37,344 bases of DNA from a virus (IMGVR_UViG_2778261692_000005), one strand, 5' to 3'. Numbered from the stretch's first letter, positions 1,544 through 32,067 are shown. Made by a program: numbers and translations. The notes: a model not told the origin generated them from the letters alone.

Positions 1544-1825
1544 ATGCGATGTGGTTTATTAATGGCAATCTGCCTTTGTTTGGTATCTTTTAGTGGGTAT
1601 GCAGCAACAGGAAAGTCAGATGCTCAGATCAAGAAAGAAATAATTAAAGAATCCATTGAATCTTATCCAGGCAATTGTGCGTGTCCGTATAATCATGCAA
1701 GGAATGGTAGTAGATGTGGTGGACGCAGTGCATATAGCCGTACTGGAGGGTATGACGTGGTATGTTATGAAAGTGATGTTACCGATGAAATGATCCGGCA
1801 ATGGAAGCAGGAGAATGCTGAGTAA
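1544..1825 (+). CDS. small secreted cysteine-rich protein of unknown function
   Basis: Internal start MRCGLLMAICLCLVSFSGYAA gives a typical Sec signal peptide; mature part has C-x-C-P-Y-N...C-G-G-R-S-A-Y...C-Y motifs; region looks AT-rich. Start uncertain (track ORF begins at 1430). Confidence 0.45.
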   Translation: MRCGLLMAICLCLVSFSGYAATGKSDAQIKKEIIKESIESYPGNCACPYNHARNGSRCGGRSAYSRTGGYDVVCYESDVTDEMIRQWKQENAE

Positions 1826-1892: not shown

Positions 1893-1935
1893 CAAAAAGA
1901 AACCCCGCAGTTTTTACGCTGCGGGGTTGTTATTC
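1893..1935. terminator. bidirectional rho-independent terminator
   Basis: Stem CCCCGCAG/CTGCGGGG flanked by an A-run upstream and T-rich run downstream; sits between convergent genes 1544-1825 (+) and hok-like 2015-2155 (-). Confidence 0.6.
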
Positions 1936-2014
1936 ATGCCTATGAGATAGGGTGCCTTATCGGCCTTACCCTAGCAACCGATTGACGGGGAGTTGCCTCC
2001 CCGCCGCGGTTTCC

Positions 2015-2155
2015 TTACTGCTTACACTGTAAGAACGCCGCAAACTCCGCTCCCCAGAAGCTCATCCGTATTTCACACAGCGAACCGTGCAGCATCCAGA
2101 TGATGAGGATTACCGTCACGCAGAACGTGATGGCCGTAAGCGATTTTTGCGACAT
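2015..2155 (-). CDS. Hok/Gef-family type I toxin homologue (46 aa)
   Basis: Unlisted small ORF MSQKSLTAITFCVTVILIIWMLHGSLCEIRMSFWGAEFAAFLQCKQ: N-terminal TM helix then SLCEIR and E-x-AAF motifs matching Hok (…[22 protein letters not shown]); RBS AAGGAG 8 nt upstream of ATG. Confidence 0.6.
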   Translation of the reverse strand: MSQKSLTAITFCVTVILIIWMLHGSLCEIRMSFWGAEFAAFLQCKQ

Positions 2156-2210
2156 AGCGCTTGCTCCTTTGTTGGAGAGGCGCTAACCTATCACTTGCTA
2201 GGTTGACGGG

Positions 2211-2323
2211 TTAGGGCCTCGGTTAAACAGAAATGTTTTCCGGGGCCTTTCCACATCCGGCCTTCGGGTATTCCCTCCGACCATCAGCCGAAAGGCACCC
2301 GCACGTAATCTATCGCTTTTTTG
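2211..2323 (+). repeat. copy B of the ~105-bp diverged direct repeat; lies in the hok-like leader/upstream region and may encode an antisense RNA
   Basis: Aligns with 1208-1310; ends in CTATCGCTTTTTTG; positioned opposite the hok-like 5' region. Confidence 0.45.
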
Positions 2324-2344
2324 TTACTCCGGCAATTCTGCCTG

Positions 2345-2605
2345 TTAATTCTGAGGTAAAGGCAAACTCATCTGATTGTTTCCCCTGTGTGAAGCTGGCA
2401 GCTCATGCCACGGGATACCTTCTGATGAGTGAACGCCGGAGGCGTGTTTCGATGTGAATTTATGGAAAGCTTCCAGTGTTGAGAAGCATACGCCGCATTC
2501 CAGGTTGTTACACTGGTAATACTTTTGCCGCACGGTGTTTGAATCATTTTCCGGACGACTGGTGCGGATACGGGCAGATGCGCCACAAAGCGGACAACGG
2601 AACAT
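2345..2605 (-). CDS. ogr: Ogr/Delta-family zinc-finger late-gene transcription activator
   Basis: MFRCPLCGASARIRTSR...YYQCNNLEC matches the P2 Ogr start MFHCPLC... and its Cys4 spacing; RBS AGGGAGG 5 nt upstream. Confidence 0.85.
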   Translation of the reverse strand: MFRCPLCGASARIRTSRPENDSNTVRQKYYQCNNLECGVCFSTLEAFHKFTSKHASGVHSSEGIPWHELPASHRGNNQMSLPLPQN

Positions 2606-2647: not shown

Positions 2648-3757
2648 TCACTCTGTTTCCGCTATCCATTCCGGGATTTTTGCCTCAAGCTCAAGCTGCG
2701 TGGTAAAGCCGCTGTTATCAATGGTGTGCTCGGCTTTTGCAATAATCCAGTCCTGATTATCAATCTCGCTTTTAAATCCTGTTACCGTGCCATGCATTTC
2801 GGGGTAGAGTTCTGCGCGTCCACGTGCCAGCGTGATGGAGAATGATGCGGCTCCGCGTTGTAGCTGCTGCCACTTTGCCGCCGCTGCGCGTCTTGCTGCC
2901 TGCTCGTTCTGATAAGTCTTGCGTAACACAAACACATTGCCTTCTGCGCCTTCCATATAATCACCTTCACGGCTGCTGCTTTTCTCCTTTTTGGGTTTTG
3001 GCGGTTTGCGGCGTTTCACGCTGACTTTTTTCTTTTTCCCGTAATTAAGATCAAGCCAGTAGGCGCGTACCCCCGTATACGCCTCGCGGTCAGCAATGCG
3101 GAACTGATGGCGATCGCCGCTGCTGCGTGTAATGGCGAACGAGGGCAACGGCTGGCCCTGTGCGTTCACGCCACCACCTGGCATGATGAATAACAGATTG
3201 CCGCTTTTTACCGTGGTGATTGCGCCCAGCATTTCCGCCATGCGCGTAAGGAAGGACATGTCACTTTCTTCGGTCTGGTCGGCGTGGTCGATTTCGATAT
3301 CCATCAGCATTTCGCTGATTTGCGGTTTCAGACCGTACCGATGAGCGATGGCGGATACCACTCGCTCAACGGTCACATCATGCCAGGACACCTCACGTTT
3401 AACGTTAAATTCATCCCGAAAATCTGCGCTTCTGGCTGAAACCGTCAGCCTGTCCGGCGGTCCTTCGTGAGCGATTTCATCAACAATGTAAGTGCCTTTT
3501 TCTGTCAGCGGTTCGCCTTTCCAGCCAATGAGAACCGTCAGGCGCGCGCCCCGTGGCGGTAGCTGCAACTGACCATCCGCATCATCCAGCGTGATGGTGA
3601 GCTGGTCCGCTTCAAATCCCCGGTTGTCGGTCAGTGACAGGCTCATTAGGCGCTCTGCCACGCCGGACAGTGTTTCCCCCTCCGCGAGAATATCAAAATC
3701 CGGCATTTTCACGGGGTCTGTGCTCTGACTGAGCAATTGCATGGTGGTGTCGGTCAT
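2648..3757 (-). CDS. D: tail protein D (late control gene D family)
   Basis: Start placed at MTDTTMQLLSQS (RBS GGAGGGAG upstream) rather than the track ORF start; translation recognised as the gpD family. Confidence 0.88.
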   Translation of the reverse strand: MTDTTMQLLSQSTDPVKMPDFDILAEGETLSGVAERLMSLSLTDNRGFEADQLTITLDDADGQLQLPPRGARLTVLIGWKGEPLTEKGTYIVDEIAHEGPPDRLTVSARSADFRDEFNVKREVSWHDVTVERVVSAIAHRYGLKPQISEMLMDIEIDHADQTEESDMSFLTRMAEMLGAITTVKSGNLLFIMPGGGVNAQGQPLPSFAITRSSGDRHQFRIADREAYTGVRAYWLDLNYGKKKKVSVKRRKPPKPKKEKSSSREGDYMEGAEGNVFVLRKTYQNEQAARRAAAAKWQQLQRGAASFSITLARGRAELYPEMHGTVTGFKSEIDNQDWIIAKAEHTIDNSGFTTQLELEAKIPEWIAETE

Positions 3758-3914
3758 CTGCTCCCTCCCTGTGTGGCATGGTCGCATGTGCGTGCGGAGG
3801 GGGTTACTGCTTTTTGTTGTCGCCGTGGCGGGAGAACGGCGCAGGGGTGAGATTACGCGCGTGGTGGGTGATGATTGTTGCCGAATCATTTAACGGATAC
3901 AAGGGGCTGAAGCT
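3758..3914. promoter_or_regulatory. divergent late promoter region between D (-) and FI (+)
   Basis: 157-bp intergenic region between divergently transcribed late operons; no Ogr TGT-N12-ACA site confidently identified. Confidence 0.35.
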
Positions 3915-25915: not shown

Positions 25916-26407
25916 TCACTCTCCTTTGATGCGAATGCCAGTGGTACTCATTCTCCTGATTTCCCAGAGCACACGAGGAACACCACCGTCTCCGACCGGA
26001 TCGCGTTTACTCCGCAGGGCGACGCTTGATTCCGCCCAGCTTTTTCTTGGAGGAAGCTCTTTCACACGAACAAAACCAGCTGCGCGGAGAGATGCTCCTG
26101 ATTCATCTGCCCGGGTGTACGTAATACAACGTTGATAACCCATAGCCTTTGCTGCCCGCCAGACAGCACCATAAAGCGCGCTGTTAGCGTTGCGTTCTCC
26201 TGTGGTACATGTGCGATTTACTTCAAGCGTTAATCCATCGTCCAAATGTCGTGCAACAGGTCGACCGGCTGTCGCCACACCTATCAATTCTCCGGCATCA
26301 TTTCTCAGACCAATGCTGAATTTATGCCCCACCGGGGGTTTATTGTGTCGGTGATGTCTGGATATAAATGCCTTCGCAACACGAAGAGTAACCGGTGAAA
26401 TTTGCAT
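25916..26407 (-). CDS. hypothetical protein (about 163 aa); weak GNAT-like pattern at most
   Basis: Start taken at MQISPVTLRV (2 nt after upstream stop); C-terminus ends …GIRIKGE like the preceding gene; no family confidently recognised. Confidence 0.55.
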   Translation of the reverse strand: MQISPVTLRVAKAFISRHHRHNKPPVGHKFSIGLRNDAGELIGVATAGRPVARHLDDGLTLEVNRTCTTGERNANSALYGAVWRAAKAMGYQRCITYTRADESGASLRAAGFVRVKELPPRKSWAESSVALRSKRDPVGDGGVPRVLWEIRRMSTTGIRIKGE

Positions 26408-26409
26408 TC

Positions 26410-26841
26410 TCACTCGCCTTTGATGCCAATGTTTACAGCCTGGCAAGCCTCTTTGAGCACCCAGTCAACAGCGTCTTTCCATGCTCCGGTTTCGGCTGGC
26501 GGATTCTCACTCTTTACCAGTTCATAGAAACGCACTGCGTTTACCAGTCCTCTTGGTACTGCTGGCGCTGGCGGCTCTCGATACATAGGGATAACACGTC
26601 GCGGGTCCGCGTATTTATCTGGCGGACACTGAAATATCTCACCGAAACCATACTGCTTGACATCACGCAGTTCCTCATCATCAGTCCATGCAACAGGTTT
26701 CGCTTCCAGCGATGTGAGTGCGATTTTCAGTGCGATTAACATATTGTGATCGTTTTCATCAAGGCCAAACGGGATGTCTTCACGACACGATTCAAGGTCT
26801 GCAATTTTGCGTTGTAACCATTTTTTGGGGATAGTTGCCAT
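26410..26841 (-). CDS. hypothetical protein (143 aa)
   Basis: RBS AGGAGAGGAG 5 nt upstream; starts MATIPKKW; ends …NIGIKGE; no family recognised. Confidence 0.55.
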   Translation of the reverse strand: MATIPKKWLQRKIADLESCREDIPFGLDENDHNMLIALKIALTSLEAKPVAWTDDEELRDVKQYGFGEIFQCPPDKYADPRRVIPMYREPPAPAVPRGLVNAVRFYELVKSENPPAETGAWKDAVDWVLKEACQAVNIGIKGE

Positions 26842-26860
26842 AGATGCTCCTCTCCTGTTT

Positions 26861-27175
26861 TCACTCTGGGAAAAATGACTGAATGTTCTTTCTTATCTCG
26901 CTAGTGCTGTGATTGCTTCCGGTGGCAGGTGCGCTGGCATATTTACTCTGAATATTATTCTTGGCTGGCGCAGCTCCTTCTTCCGGCCATTCGGCCAACC
27001 AATAGGCAAATGCAGGATCGCGTTTTATGAGTGCCAGCCCGGCCAGAAAGGCCGCGCGTTGCGCGCGGCTGCGTTCAGAGGCTGGCAGGCTGTCGAGGTA
27101 ATTACACGCCTCCCGTTCACTATTGACGGCGACTGGCTTCAGATAGAAACTTATCCGTCTGGTTGGTGTCGTCAT
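26861..27175 (-). CDS. parR: ParR-like partition adaptor / centromere-binding RHH protein
   Basis: Start at MTTPTRRISFYLKPVAVN…LDSLPASERSRAQRAAFLAGLALIKRDP matches the N-terminal RHH region of plasmid R1 ParR (IAFKLNPDVN…LDSIPQGERSRLNRAALTAGLALYRQDP). Confidence 0.75.
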   Translation of the reverse strand: MTTPTRRISFYLKPVAVNSEREACNYLDSLPASERSRAQRAAFLAGLALIKRDPAFAYWLAEWPEEGAAPAKNNIQSKYASAPATGSNHSTSEIRKNIQSFFPE

Positions 27176-27179
27176 TGGT

Positions 27180-28139
27180 TTACTCCTTGTCCATTGCGTA
27201 CAGCCCATTAACCAGAGCAAACTGTGGCACCCCGTCCGCGATGAAAGTCGCATTAACTCCGCAGGCTTCGCGGATAGCGGGTGCCACAATCTCCGCCCCA
27301 CCACCGACAACCATCACCCGCCCGTAACCCGAAAAACCCGCCAGCGCGCGGATCACGCGTTGTTTCAGTGTTTCTTCCTTTTCACGAATAACCGCCATCA
27401 GGCTGGCGTAATGCGCGTCATTGTGGATGTGCTGGCGCAGCCAGGCTTCATCATGGCGATGTTCGATAATGGTATTGGCGATGTGGTGACTGGTGCGCAT
27501 ACCGTTAGTGGCCATCACCGACAGTACGGCATCGGCCATCAGAGAAACGCCTACGTGTGGATCGCAAAACACCTGGCTGATACCTGCCAGTTGCCCCTGA
27601 ACCTTTGCCACATCCAGCGTGGTTCCGCCCAAATCCACAATCAGCAGGGATTCAAACGGACTCATGTCAGCCAGTGCCTTAAAGCCAGCCGGAATGGATT
27701 CAGGCATAACCCGTACGTTACGGATAGTGAATGCTTCGCCGTTCTGGTACTCCACCGGGCGCATAACGTTCGCTTTTTTGCGGTTGATGTTGGTCATGTC
27801 CGGCTGTGCGTTTGTGTCGAAATACTCGCTCAGTGGCAGGGTGACAACCACATCCACCTCCTGTGGCGTGATGCCTGATTTGACCAGCGCGTGATGAATG
27901 GCAATGACATTCACATCGCTGTACTGGTATTGCGTGTCGGTCGTCTGGACAAAGCGATCGCTGACCGGATCAAAACCATAGCGCACGCCATCAAGCATGT
28001 AGTTTGCGGGCTGCGTGCCACCGAACGGCGCAGACCATTCCGACTTGAAGCTGTTCGGGCTGATGGCGTTGCGGCGTTCGCCGTTCTCAGTCCATGCCAG
28101 CTTGATGTTGGTGGAGCCGTCATCGATACAAATTTTCAT
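27180..28139 (-). CDS. parM: ParM/StbA-like actin-family segregation ATPase
   Basis: MKICIDDGSTNIKLAW…ISPNSF…YSDVNV…VMPESIPAGF…LLIVDLGGTTLDV…GVSL…FSGY…VGGGAE…LVNG aligns along its length with R1 ParM; RBS AAGGAA. Confidence 0.85.
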   Translation of the reverse strand: MKICIDDGSTNIKLAWTENGERRNAISPNSFKSEWSAPFGGTQPANYMLDGVRYGFDPVSDRFVQTTDTQYQYSDVNVIAIHHALVKSGITPQEVDVVVTLPLSEYFDTNAQPDMTNINRKKANVMRPVEYQNGEAFTIRNVRVMPESIPAGFKALADMSPFESLLIVDLGGTTLDVAKVQGQLAGISQVFCDPHVGVSLMADAVLSVMATNGMRTSHHIANTIIEHRHDEAWLRQHIHNDAHYASLMAVIREKEETLKQRVIRALAGFSGYGRVMVVGGGAEIVAPAIREACGVNATFIADGVPQFALVNGLYAMDKE

Positions 28140-31745: not shown

Positions 31746-32067
31746 GGTGTGGCCTCTTTGCTCGGTGATAGAAATAGCTCACCATCCAGAGTTGAGAATC
31801 TCGGGGTGGCGAGACGTACAGGGTTCTCAACACCGGAGAGCAAAGAATCCGGCCCGACCGAAGTCGGCCCCGTACGCCCCGCCATAATTCTGACGCGAAA
31901 AAGACGTGGCAATACAGTACGCACAAAAAAACCGCTGGCGCGGTTATGCGCTTTGCTCTGTATCGGGTTGAGAATCCCGGCACCCGTTTTATGAGGTGCA
32001 GCGGAAATGTAACCTGACCGATTGCGGCATGGCAAGCGGTTTTTTTGTGTGTGCATGTTCTGGTTTC
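31746..32067. other. ~320-bp non-coding stretch inside the early operon with GTTGAGAA inverted repeats and terminator-like hairpins
   Basis: Only low-complexity ORFs overlap; GTTGAGAA/TTCTCAAC inverted pair around 31790-31830, third copy around 31965; hairpin ACCGC-N4-GCGGT with A7/T7 flank around 31925-31945. Confidence 0.4.

What the first reader, a model, noticed from the sequence alone, without database searches (positions are those of the whole stretch)
2015..2345. Hok/Gef-like type I toxin next to ogr, with a candidate antisense RNA region
The 46-aa ORF (not in the six-frame track because it is under 60 aa) has the Hok architecture: N-terminal TM helix, then SLCEIR and E-x-AAF motifs, and a strong AAGGAG RBS. 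The 190 bp between it and ogr contains a plausible promoter on the hok strand and, on the opposite strand, a ~100-nt segment ending in a T-run that could be a Sok-like antisense RNA. No overlapping mok-like frame was found.
Basis: partly seen in the sequence, partly recalled or inferred. Interest (0 to 1): 0.55.

Follow-up and report, generated by a model that had tools for sequence, protein, structure and literature searches.

The report
Known prophage hok/sok toxin-antitoxin cassette
This is an ordinary, already annotated Hok/Sok-type toxin-antitoxin cassette at the end of a P2-like prophage of E. coli; its only unusual trait is that, like all its close relatives, it lacks the usual 'mok' leader reading frame.

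Summary
The 46-aa ORF at 2015-2155 (-) is real and is a Hok/Gef toxin. It scores 30.1 bits on Pfam HOK_GEF (cut-off 22) and E 2.5e-23 on PHROG 251. RefSeq annotates it as WP_000078920.1, 'Hok/Gef family protein'. The locus occurs in 1751 of 5426 complete E. coli genomes. The exact peptide is entry 1628 of a 2025/26 Hok catalogue, in cluster 72, where a one-residue variant was toxic on overexpression.

The cassette is larger than the finding, about 1893-2335. It has a weak hok promoter, a transcript start near G2300, a 5' element that pairs with a 3' element at 1950-1965, and a terminator at 1901-1928.

The antisense RNA is misplaced in the finding. By homology to K-12 sokC and by a conserved promoter (TTGCTC-17-TAACCT, 2161-2189), Sok runs from about 2197 to about 2256 (+). 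It does not run 2211-2323, and the T-run at 2316-2321 lies in the hok promoter spacer.

The absence of mok is confirmed for the window and for 54 of 54 distinct relatives. Folding suggests a direct switch instead: 3' trimming opens the hok ribosome site and Sok binding closes it again. That step is inferred, not shown.

Novelty: already known. Interest: low.

The parts
2330..2335 (-). hok promoter -35 (TTGCCG)
   Evidence: Read from the sequence. The TTG is invariant in 10 homologues from three different genomic contexts; mean majority fraction is 0.94 in 54 unique sequences. It is weak by consensus and was not reported by the scan.
2307..2312 (-). hok promoter -10 (TAGATT), 17-nt spacer, 7 nt before the conserved transcript start
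1893..2300 (-). Predicted full-length hok mRNA (about 408 nt), from G2300 to the U-tract after the terminator
   Evidence: The Rfam sok model (which is in hok-sense orientation) starts at 2300. GGGTGCC is invariant. The fold gives -181.9 kcal/mol, z -7.2. Across 23 homologues 89.6% of pair cells are paired against about 40% when partners are slid, and 27 pairs change on both sides. The ends have not been mapped experimentally.
2286..2300 (-). tac-like 5' element (GGGUGCCUUUCGGCU)
   Evidence: It is the most conserved segment (majority fraction 0.999). It pairs with 1950-1965 in the full-length fold and with 2266-2282 or 2242-2252 in truncated folds.
2197..2256 (+). Predicted Sok-like antisense RNA (about 55-60 nt): variable single-stranded 5' tail, then the 2213-2249 hairpin, then GGGGCCUUUCC
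   Evidence: Position carried over from RefSeq sokC of K-12 through Rfam RF01794. Fold of 2197-2262: -28.8 kcal/mol, z -3.3. The 27 distinct variants keep the hairpin and 3' end and vary in the 5' tail. No transcript data are available.
2161..2189 (+). sok promoter: -35 TTGCTC (2161-2166), 17-nt spacer, -10 TAACCT (2184-2189). It overlaps the hok SD and start region.
   Evidence: The complement of the -10 has majority fraction 0.997 and that of the -35 has 0.978 in 54 sequences. The layout matches R1 and hokC, where the -35 overlaps the hok SD (R1 from my own knowledge). The consensus match is only 6 of 12.
2155..2185 (-). Hairpin that sequesters the hok SD (AAGGAG, 2164-2169) and AUG; -13.4 kcal/mol
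   Evidence: The pairs are kept in 94.9% of cells, with wobble-compatible changes (helix 7).
2015..2155 (-). hok CDS, 46 aa
   Evidence: Pfam HOK_GEF scores 30.1 bits against a gathering score of 22. PHROG 251 gives E 2.5e-23. RefSeq names it WP_000078920.1. dN/dS is 0.14-0.50. It is catalogue entry 1628, cluster 72.
2209..2220 (-). GAGGCCCUAACC, the homologue of the mok SD region of R1 and hokC. Here it has no start codon after it. It is proposed to pair with 2177-2189 in the trimmed mRNA.
   Evidence: No ATG, GTG or TTG lies 3-13 nt downstream in 54 of 54 sequences. The alternative helix scores -15.7 kcal/mol. Both arms are invariant, so covariation cannot test the pairing.
1984..2005 (-). 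G+C-rich hairpin just after the hok stop codon; a likely barrier to 3' trimming
   Evidence: 99.5% of cells are paired and 4 pairs show compensatory changes (helix 14).
1970..1982 (-). 3' UTR segment that pairs with leader positions 99-111 (2190-2202)
   Evidence: 6 of 12 pairs change on both sides (helix 6). Removing this segment flips the predicted leader fold.
1950..1965 (-). fbi-like fold-back element, complementary to the mRNA 5' end
   Evidence: Helix 1 is 93.8% paired, and changes on the 3' side are wobble-compatible.
1901..1928 (.). Bidirectional intrinsic terminator, shared with the convergent 93-aa ORF (1544-1825, +)
   Evidence: The terminator scan finds it on both strands. It shows compensatory changes (helix 16).
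2345..2605 (-). ogr (context): late-gene activator, upstream on the same strand, with no predicted terminator before hok
   Evidence: Pfam Ogr_Delta E 5.1e-14; RefSeq annotation; no terminator predicted in between.

Best explanation
The region 1893-2335 is a self-contained hok/sok-family type I toxin-antitoxin cassette. It is carried as cargo between ogr and the attachment end of a P2-like (P88/Xuanwuvirus-type) prophage of E. coli.

Shown or strongly supported:
- The minus strand encodes a 46-aa Hok/Gef membrane toxin.
- Its roughly 408-nt mRNA has the family's architecture: an invariant 5' element that pairs with a 3' fold-back element, a sequestered ribosome-binding site, a stable hairpin after the stop codon, and a terminator.
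- The leader is homologous to the hokC/sokC leader of K-12.

Inferred by homology:
- A roughly 55-60-nt Sok-like RNA is made from the plus strand, from about 2197 to about 2256, from a conserved promoter that overlaps the hok SD.
- It pairs with the hok leader, starting from its variable 5' tail, and leads to repression and RNase III cleavage.

Inferred from folding only:
- This clade has no mok, so hok translation is controlled directly.
- The full-length mRNA is locked.
- 3' trimming to about 1976-1983 lets the 5' element capture 2242-2252. GAGGCCCUAACC (2209-2220) can then pair with the anti-SD arm (2177-2189), which opens the hok ribosome site.
- Sok binding to 2197-2256 breaks that helix and the site closes again.

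Likely roles, by analogy and untested here: stabilising the prophage by killing cells that lose it, and/or helping lysis on induction, as shown for hokW-sokW.
For: Toxin identity: Pfam 30.1 bits against a cut-off of 22; PHROG 251 E 2.5e-23. The conserved Hok residues C12, T14, L26, C27, E28 and E37 align with C16, T18, L30, C31, E32 and E41 of the family logo.

Prior knowledge: RefSeq annotates it in every genome inspected. The exact peptide is in the published catalogue, and two cluster-72 members were among 45 tested constructs, of which only three named others were non-toxic.

Leader homology: Rfam RF01794 E 4.4e-9 at 2145-2300 (-). The same model hits K-12 hokC at 118 bits on the hok strand, where sokC is annotated opposite.

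Structure: z -7.2. Covariation is above all 500 shuffles and far above the slid controls.

Sok: its promoter and hairpin are conserved while its 5' tail varies.

Selection: dN/dS is 0.14-0.50.

Switch: the energy to open the ribosome site is 14.1 kcal/mol full-length, 8.1 trimmed, and 14.1 trimmed with the Sok target blocked. The means are 13.2, 8.7 and 13.7 in 22 homologues. Blocking other 60-nt stretches gives 7.1-9.8.
Against: There are no transcript, processing or toxicity data for this exact locus.

The Rfam hit is below the gathering score (47.3 against 59). NCBIfam HokA and Hok-family scores are below their cut-offs.

Both promoters match the consensus poorly (8 of 12 and 6 of 12), and the scan reported none.

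The arms of the proposed switch helix are invariant, so covariation cannot test it. On the isolated leader segment the closed state is 8.4 kcal/mol more stable. Per-base unpaired probabilities of the SD barely change.

The homologues are closely related, so 22 of 22 does not amount to 22 independent tests.

In R1, mok translation up to the hok SD is mandatory (PMC9841398). A mok-less relative might therefore be poorly expressed.
Confidence: 0.85

Rival explanations
1. The antitoxin is the reader's long antisense RNA (about 113 nt, 2211-2323, +) that ends at the T-run 2316-2321 and covers the whole 5' part of the hok leader and its promoter.
For: A run of six T exists at 2316-2321. The A/T run is partly conserved (three invariant A). 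The Sok hairpin is followed by only UUU, a poor terminator tail, so some read-through is conceivable.
Against: No terminator-like site was found there. No G+C-rich hairpin abuts the T-run, and the folds are not better than shuffles (z -1.7 and -1.9). The annotated sokC of K-12 ends at the homologous position of about 2256. No promoter is conserved at about 2175-2205 that would start an RNA at 2211. The conserved -10 places the start near 2197.
Confidence: 0.06
2. The locus is a silent relic. Having lost mok, hok is never translated, and the cassette persists only by hitch-hiking on prophages.
For: No mok start is present in any of 54 relatives. The hok SD lies in a -13.4 kcal/mol hairpin in all predicted forms. 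R1 requires mok translation. Several K-12 hok loci are known to be inactivated, for example hokA by IS150.
Against: The ORF is intact in all 54 unique copies. dN/dS is 0.14-0.50. Third codon positions are the most variable. The RNA elements (tac, fbi, sok promoter) are near-invariant across P2-like, lambdoid/Stx and chromosomal contexts. Cluster-72 peptides are toxic when expressed.
Confidence: 0.08
3. A non-homologous leader ORF does the job of mok by unfolding the hok SD hairpin when a ribosome terminates nearby. Candidates are the ORF starting at AUG 2256 (21 aa here), whose GAAGG is freed when the 5' element refolds, and the GUG 2194 mini-ORF.
For: GAAGGCC-N-GAUGUGG is almost invariant. 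The predicted accessibility of that AUG rises after removal of the fbi element. Its start abuts the Sok target. In 5 of 54 relatives this AUG-45 ORF reads past the hok start (in further relatives an ORF from AUG 17 or GUG 47 does), and the GUG mini-ORF ends 14 nt before the SD in most.
Against: The end of the AUG-45 ORF scatters from -99 to +136 relative to the hok AUG, because leader indels shift the frame. In the EDL933, RM10042 and Stx-phage copies it ends after 8-15 codons. The GUG is GUA in several relatives. The invariance is equally explained by the Sok 3' end and RNA pairing.
Confidence: 0.12

Closest known systems
Cluster 72 of the Hok catalogue of Escalera-Maurer et al. (bioRxiv 10.1101/2025.08.07.668861); RefSeq WP_000078920.1 'Hok/Gef family protein'; PHROG 251 'MokW-like host killing'
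   Same: The peptide is identical (catalogue entry 1628). Variant 72_1621 differs by V15A, and the Stx-phage variant 72_1589 is 76% identical. Both were cloned for the toxicity assay and are not among the three non-toxic constructs.
   Different: Nothing at the protein level. The catalogue did not analyse Mok, Sok or mRNA structure, which is what this report adds.
hok/mok/sok (parB) of plasmid R1
   Same: A Hok-family toxin with the conserved C, T, LCE and E residues. The 5'-3' fold-back lock, activation by 3' trimming, an antisense RNA with a single-stranded 5' tail plus hairpin, and a sok -35 overlapping the hok SD are also shared (architecture from PMC9841398; here).
   Different: Only 28% peptide identity and 46 aa against 52. 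There is no mok: no start codon follows the conserved GAGG, and an in-frame TAG sits inside the sok -10. The location is a prophage, not a plasmid.
hokC (gef)/mokC/sokC of E. coli K-12
   Same: Leader homology is detectable with the same Rfam model, and the positions of the transcript start, sokT hairpin, GAGG and hok AUG correspond.
   Different: mokC is an in-frame N-terminal extension starting 8 nt after GAGG; it is absent here. The peptides are 22% identical. The Rfam score is 47 bits here against 118 for hokC.
hokW-sokW of Stx2 prophage Sp5 (Takada et al. 2021, PMC8621323)
   Same: It is a prophage-borne hok/sok shown to be a type I TA. The antitoxin partly needs RNase III and Hfq, and the system aids lysis and phage release after mitomycin C. 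It is a functional precedent.
   Different: HokW is a 51-aa HokD-like peptide (MKQQKAM...; catalogue entry 35_712) and not this clade. Stx phages also carry a separate cluster-72 copy that is 84% identical in DNA to this locus.
HokA (NCBIfam NF007290)
   Same: It is the best named NCBIfam match (35.8 bits) and shares the ...ELAAFLACK-type C-terminus.
   Different: The score is far below the equivalog cut-off of 89, and identity is 43%. The K-12 hokA leader is disrupted by IS150, so it could not be compared.

Membership tests
Hok/Gef toxin family (Pfam PF01848) | The peptide matches the HOK_GEF profile above the gathering score | tested here: met
   30.1 bits against 22, E 3.7e-07, residues 7-44 on profile positions 5-42 of 42.
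Hok/Gef toxin family (Pfam PF01848) | Small peptide (about 46-55 aa) with an N-terminal hydrophobic helix and the conserved C, T, LCE and E residues | tested here: met
   46 aa with hydropathy up to 2.7 over residues 5-22. C12, T14, L26, C27, E28 and E37 align with the positions conserved in more than 80% of 1264 Hok peptides.
Hok/Gef toxin family (Pfam PF01848) | Toxic to the cell when expressed | not testable with these tools
   Indirect only. The one-residue variant 72_1621 and variant 72_1589 were in the 45-construct assay, and the three non-toxic constructs were others.
hok/sok type I TA locus (R1 paradigm) | hok mRNA leader homologous to known hok leaders (Rfam RF01794) | tested here: inconclusive
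   E 4.4e-9, full-length match 1-157, but 47.3 bits is below the gathering score of 59. Relatives score 31-50 bits and hokC scores 118.
hok/sok type I TA locus (R1 paradigm) | The 5' end (tac) pairs with a 3' fold-back element (fbi) in the full-length mRNA, with an alternative local partner after 3' trimming | tested here: met
   It is predicted in the MFE fold. 93.8% of cells are paired in 23 homologues, with wobble-compatible changes (helix 1). This is computational evidence only.
hok/sok type I TA locus (R1 paradigm) | A cis-encoded antisense Sok RNA with its own promoter opposite the leader | tested here: inconclusive
   The promoter elements and hairpin are conserved, the 5' tail varies, and the position is homologous to annotated sokC. 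No expression data are available, and the promoter matches the consensus at 6 of 12.
hok/sok type I TA locus (R1 paradigm) | A mok reading frame that starts in the Sok target and is translated up to or over the hok SD | tested here: not met
   No start codon lies 3-13 nt after the conserved GAGG in 54 of 54 sequences. An in-frame TAG at 2183-2185 is invariant. The leader ORFs are not conserved in frame or end point.
HokA equivalog (NCBIfam NF007290) | Score above the equivalog cut-off | tested here: not met
   35.8 bits against 89.
HokW (Sp5/933W) sensu stricto | 51-aa HokD-like peptide MKQQKAM... | tested here: not met
   It is a different peptide and cluster. 'MokW-like' in the phage records is the PHROG family name.

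The most novel reading that the evidence does not exclude
The whole prophage-associated Hok clade to which this locus belongs has dispensed with mok. The clade comprises cluster 72 and its neighbours and is present in about a third of complete E. coli genomes. It regulates hok directly. The sequence that serves as the mok Shine-Dalgarno in R1 and hokC has been re-used as an 'anti-anti-SD' that opens the hok ribosome site after 3' trimming, and Sok represses by breaking that helix rather than by blocking mok translation.
Probability: 0.3. Interest if true: 0.35.

Novelty: already known. Interest (0 to 1): 0.15.

Why it matters
It matters little as a discovery. The gene is annotated in RefSeq, falls in a PHROG family, and is listed in a recent Hok catalogue whose authors showed that members of its cluster are toxic.

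The useful output is a corrected map of the cassette: the transcript start, the Sok position, the fold-back element and the terminator. A second point is that this very common prophage-borne clade has no mok in any copy examined. If the clade is functional, as purifying selection suggests, then mok-coupled translation is not a universal feature of hok/sok. Annotation pipelines that label these peptides 'MokW-like' are then misleading.

The predicted direct RNA switch is cheap to test.

Tried and rejected
- Consensus promoter scan of 1800-2700: it found no sites, because both promoters are below its 9-of-12 threshold.
- Search for any conserved mok-like ORF: the leader ORFs at AUG 2284, AUG 2256 and GUG 2194 were examined in 10 and then 54 homologues. 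Their frames and ends scatter, so they were rejected as a conserved mok.
- Per-base unpaired probabilities of the hok SD: these barely change between mRNA forms. Only the energy to open the whole site discriminates between the forms.
- Comparison with the K-12 hokA leader: impossible, because IS150 interrupts it.
- Search for attachment-site direct repeats of at least 18 nt in the window: none was convincing.
- Literature searches for hok together with P2-like or ogr: nothing specific was found.
- The catalogue's main text does not discuss cluster 72.
- The genome-contig scan returned hits labelled Planococcaceae, Vagococcus and Xanthomonas, 74-100% identical in peptide to the E. coli Hok. I take these as probable contamination and not as evidence of wider distribution.
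- Structure prediction and the large protein searches were not used. The family assignment was already unambiguous.

Full report
**Where the window comes from.** The 801 bases around the finding are 100% identical to E. coli strain CEA601S (NZ_CP166713.1). They are 95-97% identical to P2-like phages such as Chuche, P88 and Xuanwuvirus P884B11. The annotated stretch that corresponds to the whole window is a complete P2-like prophage. It runs from an integrase at one end to D, ogr and hok at the other, and is integrated beside the tRNA Gly-Cys-Leu cluster downstream of pgsA.

**The observation.**
- The ORF at 2015..2155 (-) is there as described: 46 aa, an ATG start, and AAGGAG 8 nt upstream.
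- SLCEIR occupies residues 25-30 and EFAAF residues 37-41. The N-terminal half is strongly hydrophobic.
- ogr is 2345..2605 (-), with Pfam Ogr_Delta E 5.1e-14.
- The T-run is at 2316-2321.

**Identity of the ORF.**
- Pfam HOK_GEF matches above its gathering score, 30.1 bits against 22.
- PHROG 251, 'MokW-like host killing', matches at E 2.5e-23 over the full length.
- The NCBIfam HokA and Hok-family models match only below their cut-offs.
- The residues conserved in more than 80% of known Hok peptides are all present.
- RefSeq annotates this exact protein (WP_000078920.1) as 'Hok/Gef family protein'. Phage records call it 'MokW-like host killing protein'.
- A sensitive DNA search finds the cassette in 1751 of 5426 complete E. 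coli genomes, with up to 9 places per genome.
- The exact peptide is entry 1628 in the supplementary alignment of the Hok catalogue of Escalera-Maurer et al..
- Its 60%-identity cluster (72) contributed two constructs to their toxicity assay: 72_1621, which differs by V15A, and 72_1589. Of 45 constructs, only three others were non-toxic.

So the toxin is already known, annotated, and in effect experimentally validated at the cluster level.

**Not HokW.** This is not HokW in the strict sense. HokW of prophage Sp5 is a 51-aa HokD-like peptide. Stx phages carry a copy of the present clade in addition, 84% identical in DNA.

**Anatomy of the cassette.** Positions on the mRNA are written as p, where the window coordinate is 2301 - p.

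The Rfam family called 'sok' (RF01794) hits 2145-2300 on the minus strand (E 4.4e-9, 47.3 bits, below the gathering score of 59). To learn what that model represents, I ran it on K-12 hokC. It hits the hokC/mokC strand, from the transcript start to the hokC AUG, at 118 bits, while RefSeq's sokC lies on the opposite strand inside that span. The hit therefore says that the window's leader is homologous to a hok leader. It also allows the sokC ends to be carried over, to about 2200-2256 on the plus strand.

I aligned 10, then 54 unique, then 23 selected homologues. They come from three kinds of context: beside ogr in P2-like prophages, after lom or J in lambdoid and Stx phages, and beside ykgM/rpmE2 in O157 and other chromosomes. 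The cassette boundaries and element conservation are as follows.
- **hok promoter:** TTGCCG-17-TAGATT (2335-2307). The TTG and the TA..T are conserved.
- **Transcript start:** GGGTGCC at 2300. The first 15 nt are the most conserved segment of all, with majority fraction 0.999.
- **sok promoter:** the complement of its -10 (AGGTTA) scores 0.997 and that of its -35 scores 0.978.
- **Most variable leader patch:** p87-104, majority fraction 0.80. This is the target of the 5' tail of Sok.

The predicted Sok has 27 distinct variants in this sample. All share a 13-17-nt variable tail, a strong hairpin that comes in two apical 'alleles', and the 3' end GGGGCCUUUCCACAU. This is the expected pattern for a recognition tail that differs between co-resident copies, although relaxed constraint would give the same pattern.

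**mRNA structure.** The full-length mRNA (p1-408) folds at -181.9 kcal/mol (z -7.2). p1-15 pairs with p336-351, which corresponds to 1965-1950 and is the fold-back element. On 23 homologues the structure has 89.6% of cells paired, against 37-44% when partners are slid by 1-3 columns. There are 27 pairs with changes on both sides, and 0 of 500 shuffles reach that number. The structure was derived from the window sequence, so the percentage paired is biased towards it.

Compensatory changes concentrate in three places:
- the long-range helix p99-111 with p319-331;
- the hairpin after the stop codon (p296-317);
- the terminator.

The terminator at 1901-1928 is bidirectional and also serves the convergent 93-aa ORF.

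**The antisense proposal.**
- Its proposed 3' end rests on the T-run. That run has no adjoining G+C-rich hairpin, was not called by the terminator scan, and lies in a segment that folds no better than shuffles.
- On the hok strand that run is the A-tract of the hok promoter spacer.

I therefore place Sok at about 2197 to about 2256. The start near G2197 is set by the invariant TAACCT and the conserved ACTTG after it. No transcript data exist to settle either end.

**mok.**
- In R1 and hokC, mok starts 7-8 nt after a conserved GAGG (the R1 sequence is from my own knowledge, and its requirement for mok is from PMC9841398). Here GAGG is conserved, but no ATG, GTG or TTG follows within 3-13 nt in any of 54 unique sequences.
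- In the hok frame, an invariant TAG sits nine codons upstream. It is part of the sok -10.
- Other leader ORFs start at AUG p17, AUG p45 and GUG p107. Single-base indels shift their frames, and the end of the p45 ORF scatters from -99 to +136 relative to the hok AUG.

This defining feature of the R1 paradigm is not met.

The cassette nevertheless looks functional. The ORF is intact in every copy, dN/dS is 0.14-0.50 in 27 pairs, and third codon positions vary most.

**How it may work without mok (inference).** In every predicted form the hok SD and AUG sit in a local hairpin (p116-146, -13.4 kcal/mol). The MFE fold changes when the 3' end is trimmed past p325:
- the 5' element pairs with p49-59;
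- GAGGCCCUAACC (p81-92) pairs with p113-124, which is the 5' arm of the SD hairpin;
- the SD is left in weak pairs.

This arrangement mirrors the tac/ucb and SD-mok/dcb pairings described for truncated R1 mRNA. The difference is that here the 'dcb' doubles as the hok anti-SD.

The energy needed to open p130-150 is as follows.

| mRNA form | Window | Mean of 22 homologues |
|---|---|---|
| Full-length | 14.1 kcal/mol | 13.2 kcal/mol |
| Trimmed | 8.1 kcal/mol | 8.7 kcal/mol |
| Trimmed, Sok target p45-104 blocked | 14.1 kcal/mol | 13.7 kcal/mol |

The drop on trimming holds in 22 of 22 homologues, and the re-closing holds in 21 of 22. Blocking other 60-nt stretches gives 7.1-9.8.

Caveats:
- the homologues are related, so they are not independent tests;
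- both arms of the switch helix are invariant, so covariation is silent on it;
- on the isolated leader, the closed state is 8.4 kcal/mol more stable;
- the site of 3' processing is assumed.

I rate this switch as plausible and untested.

**Biological role (inference).** By analogy, the role is post-segregational stabilisation of the prophage and/or help with lysis on induction. The second was shown for hokW-sokW of Sp5, where mitomycin C lowers SokW and raises HokW. No terminator is predicted between ogr and hok. Read-through from ogr could therefore feed hok-sense RNA, which is testable.

**Verdict.**
It is wrong on the extent and terminator of the antisense RNA, and it misses the 3' UTR elements.
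- The object is already known.
- The only mildly new point is that a very common prophage-borne Hok clade lacks mok throughout. The recent catalogue explicitly left this open.

Noticed in passing
window 1544-1825 (+): A 93-aa ORF lies between hok and the tRNA cluster, convergent with hok and sharing its terminator. It has a signal-peptide or lipoprotein-like N-terminus and a Cys-rich body. It matches PHROG 27544 (unknown function, E 1.5e-59) and, weakly, 'membrane associated protein' morons. RefSeq calls it hypothetical. It is probably a second cargo gene at this prophage end.
   Followed up: partly
window 31802-31889 (-) and 31925-31999 (-): Rfam finds a C4 antisense RNA (78.5 bits) and isrK (62.8 bits) above their gathering scores. 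They lie side by side in the prophage's early/immunity region. This is a P1/P7-type c4 immunity RNA module inside a P2-like prophage.
   Followed up: no
window about 26340-27615 (L099 9730-11005): The prophage carries ParM-like and 'plasmid partitioning/stability' genes directly after its replication endonuclease gene. This hints at a plasmid-like segregation function in an integrating P2-like phage.
   Followed up: no
window 2648-3889 (-): The mechanical ORF for tail gene D is 413 aa. RefSeq annotates only 266 aa plus an adjacent 'incomplete' pseudogene fragment, whereas phage Chuche has 369 aa. The start of D is uncertain, or the 5' part is rearranged. The FI-FII-E-T-U tail block is transcribed divergently from D and ogr, unlike in P2.
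   Followed up: no
L013, L014, L017 (genome contigs): Hok peptides 74-100% identical to this E. coli Hok turn up on contigs labelled Planococcaceae MAG, Vagococcus sp. and Xanthomonas pisi; L013 and L017 are short contigs (4211 and 857 nt), L014 is 226 kb. These are most likely contamination or mis-binning of enterobacterial DNA.
   Followed up: no
L009, L010 (E. coli G8, EDL933): A diverged copy of the same cassette, 73-74% identical in DNA, sits next to the ykgM/rpmE2 paralogue (type B L31) outside any obvious prophage gene. The clade therefore also has chromosomal copies.
   Followed up: partly
Rfam RF01794 'sok': The Rfam family named 'sok antitoxin' is modelled on the hok-sense strand. 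It spans the whole hok leader from the transcript start to the hok AUG, as shown on K-12 hokC, where sokC is annotated on the other strand. Strand calls from this model therefore point to the toxin mRNA and not to the antitoxin.
   Followed up: yes
L018 (Salmonella enterica subsp. diarizonae): The most distant copy (70% peptide identity) has an 18-nt deletion in the leader that removes the local partner of the 5' element (p10-27). It lies next to the STnc540 and STnc320 sRNA matches.
   Followed up: no
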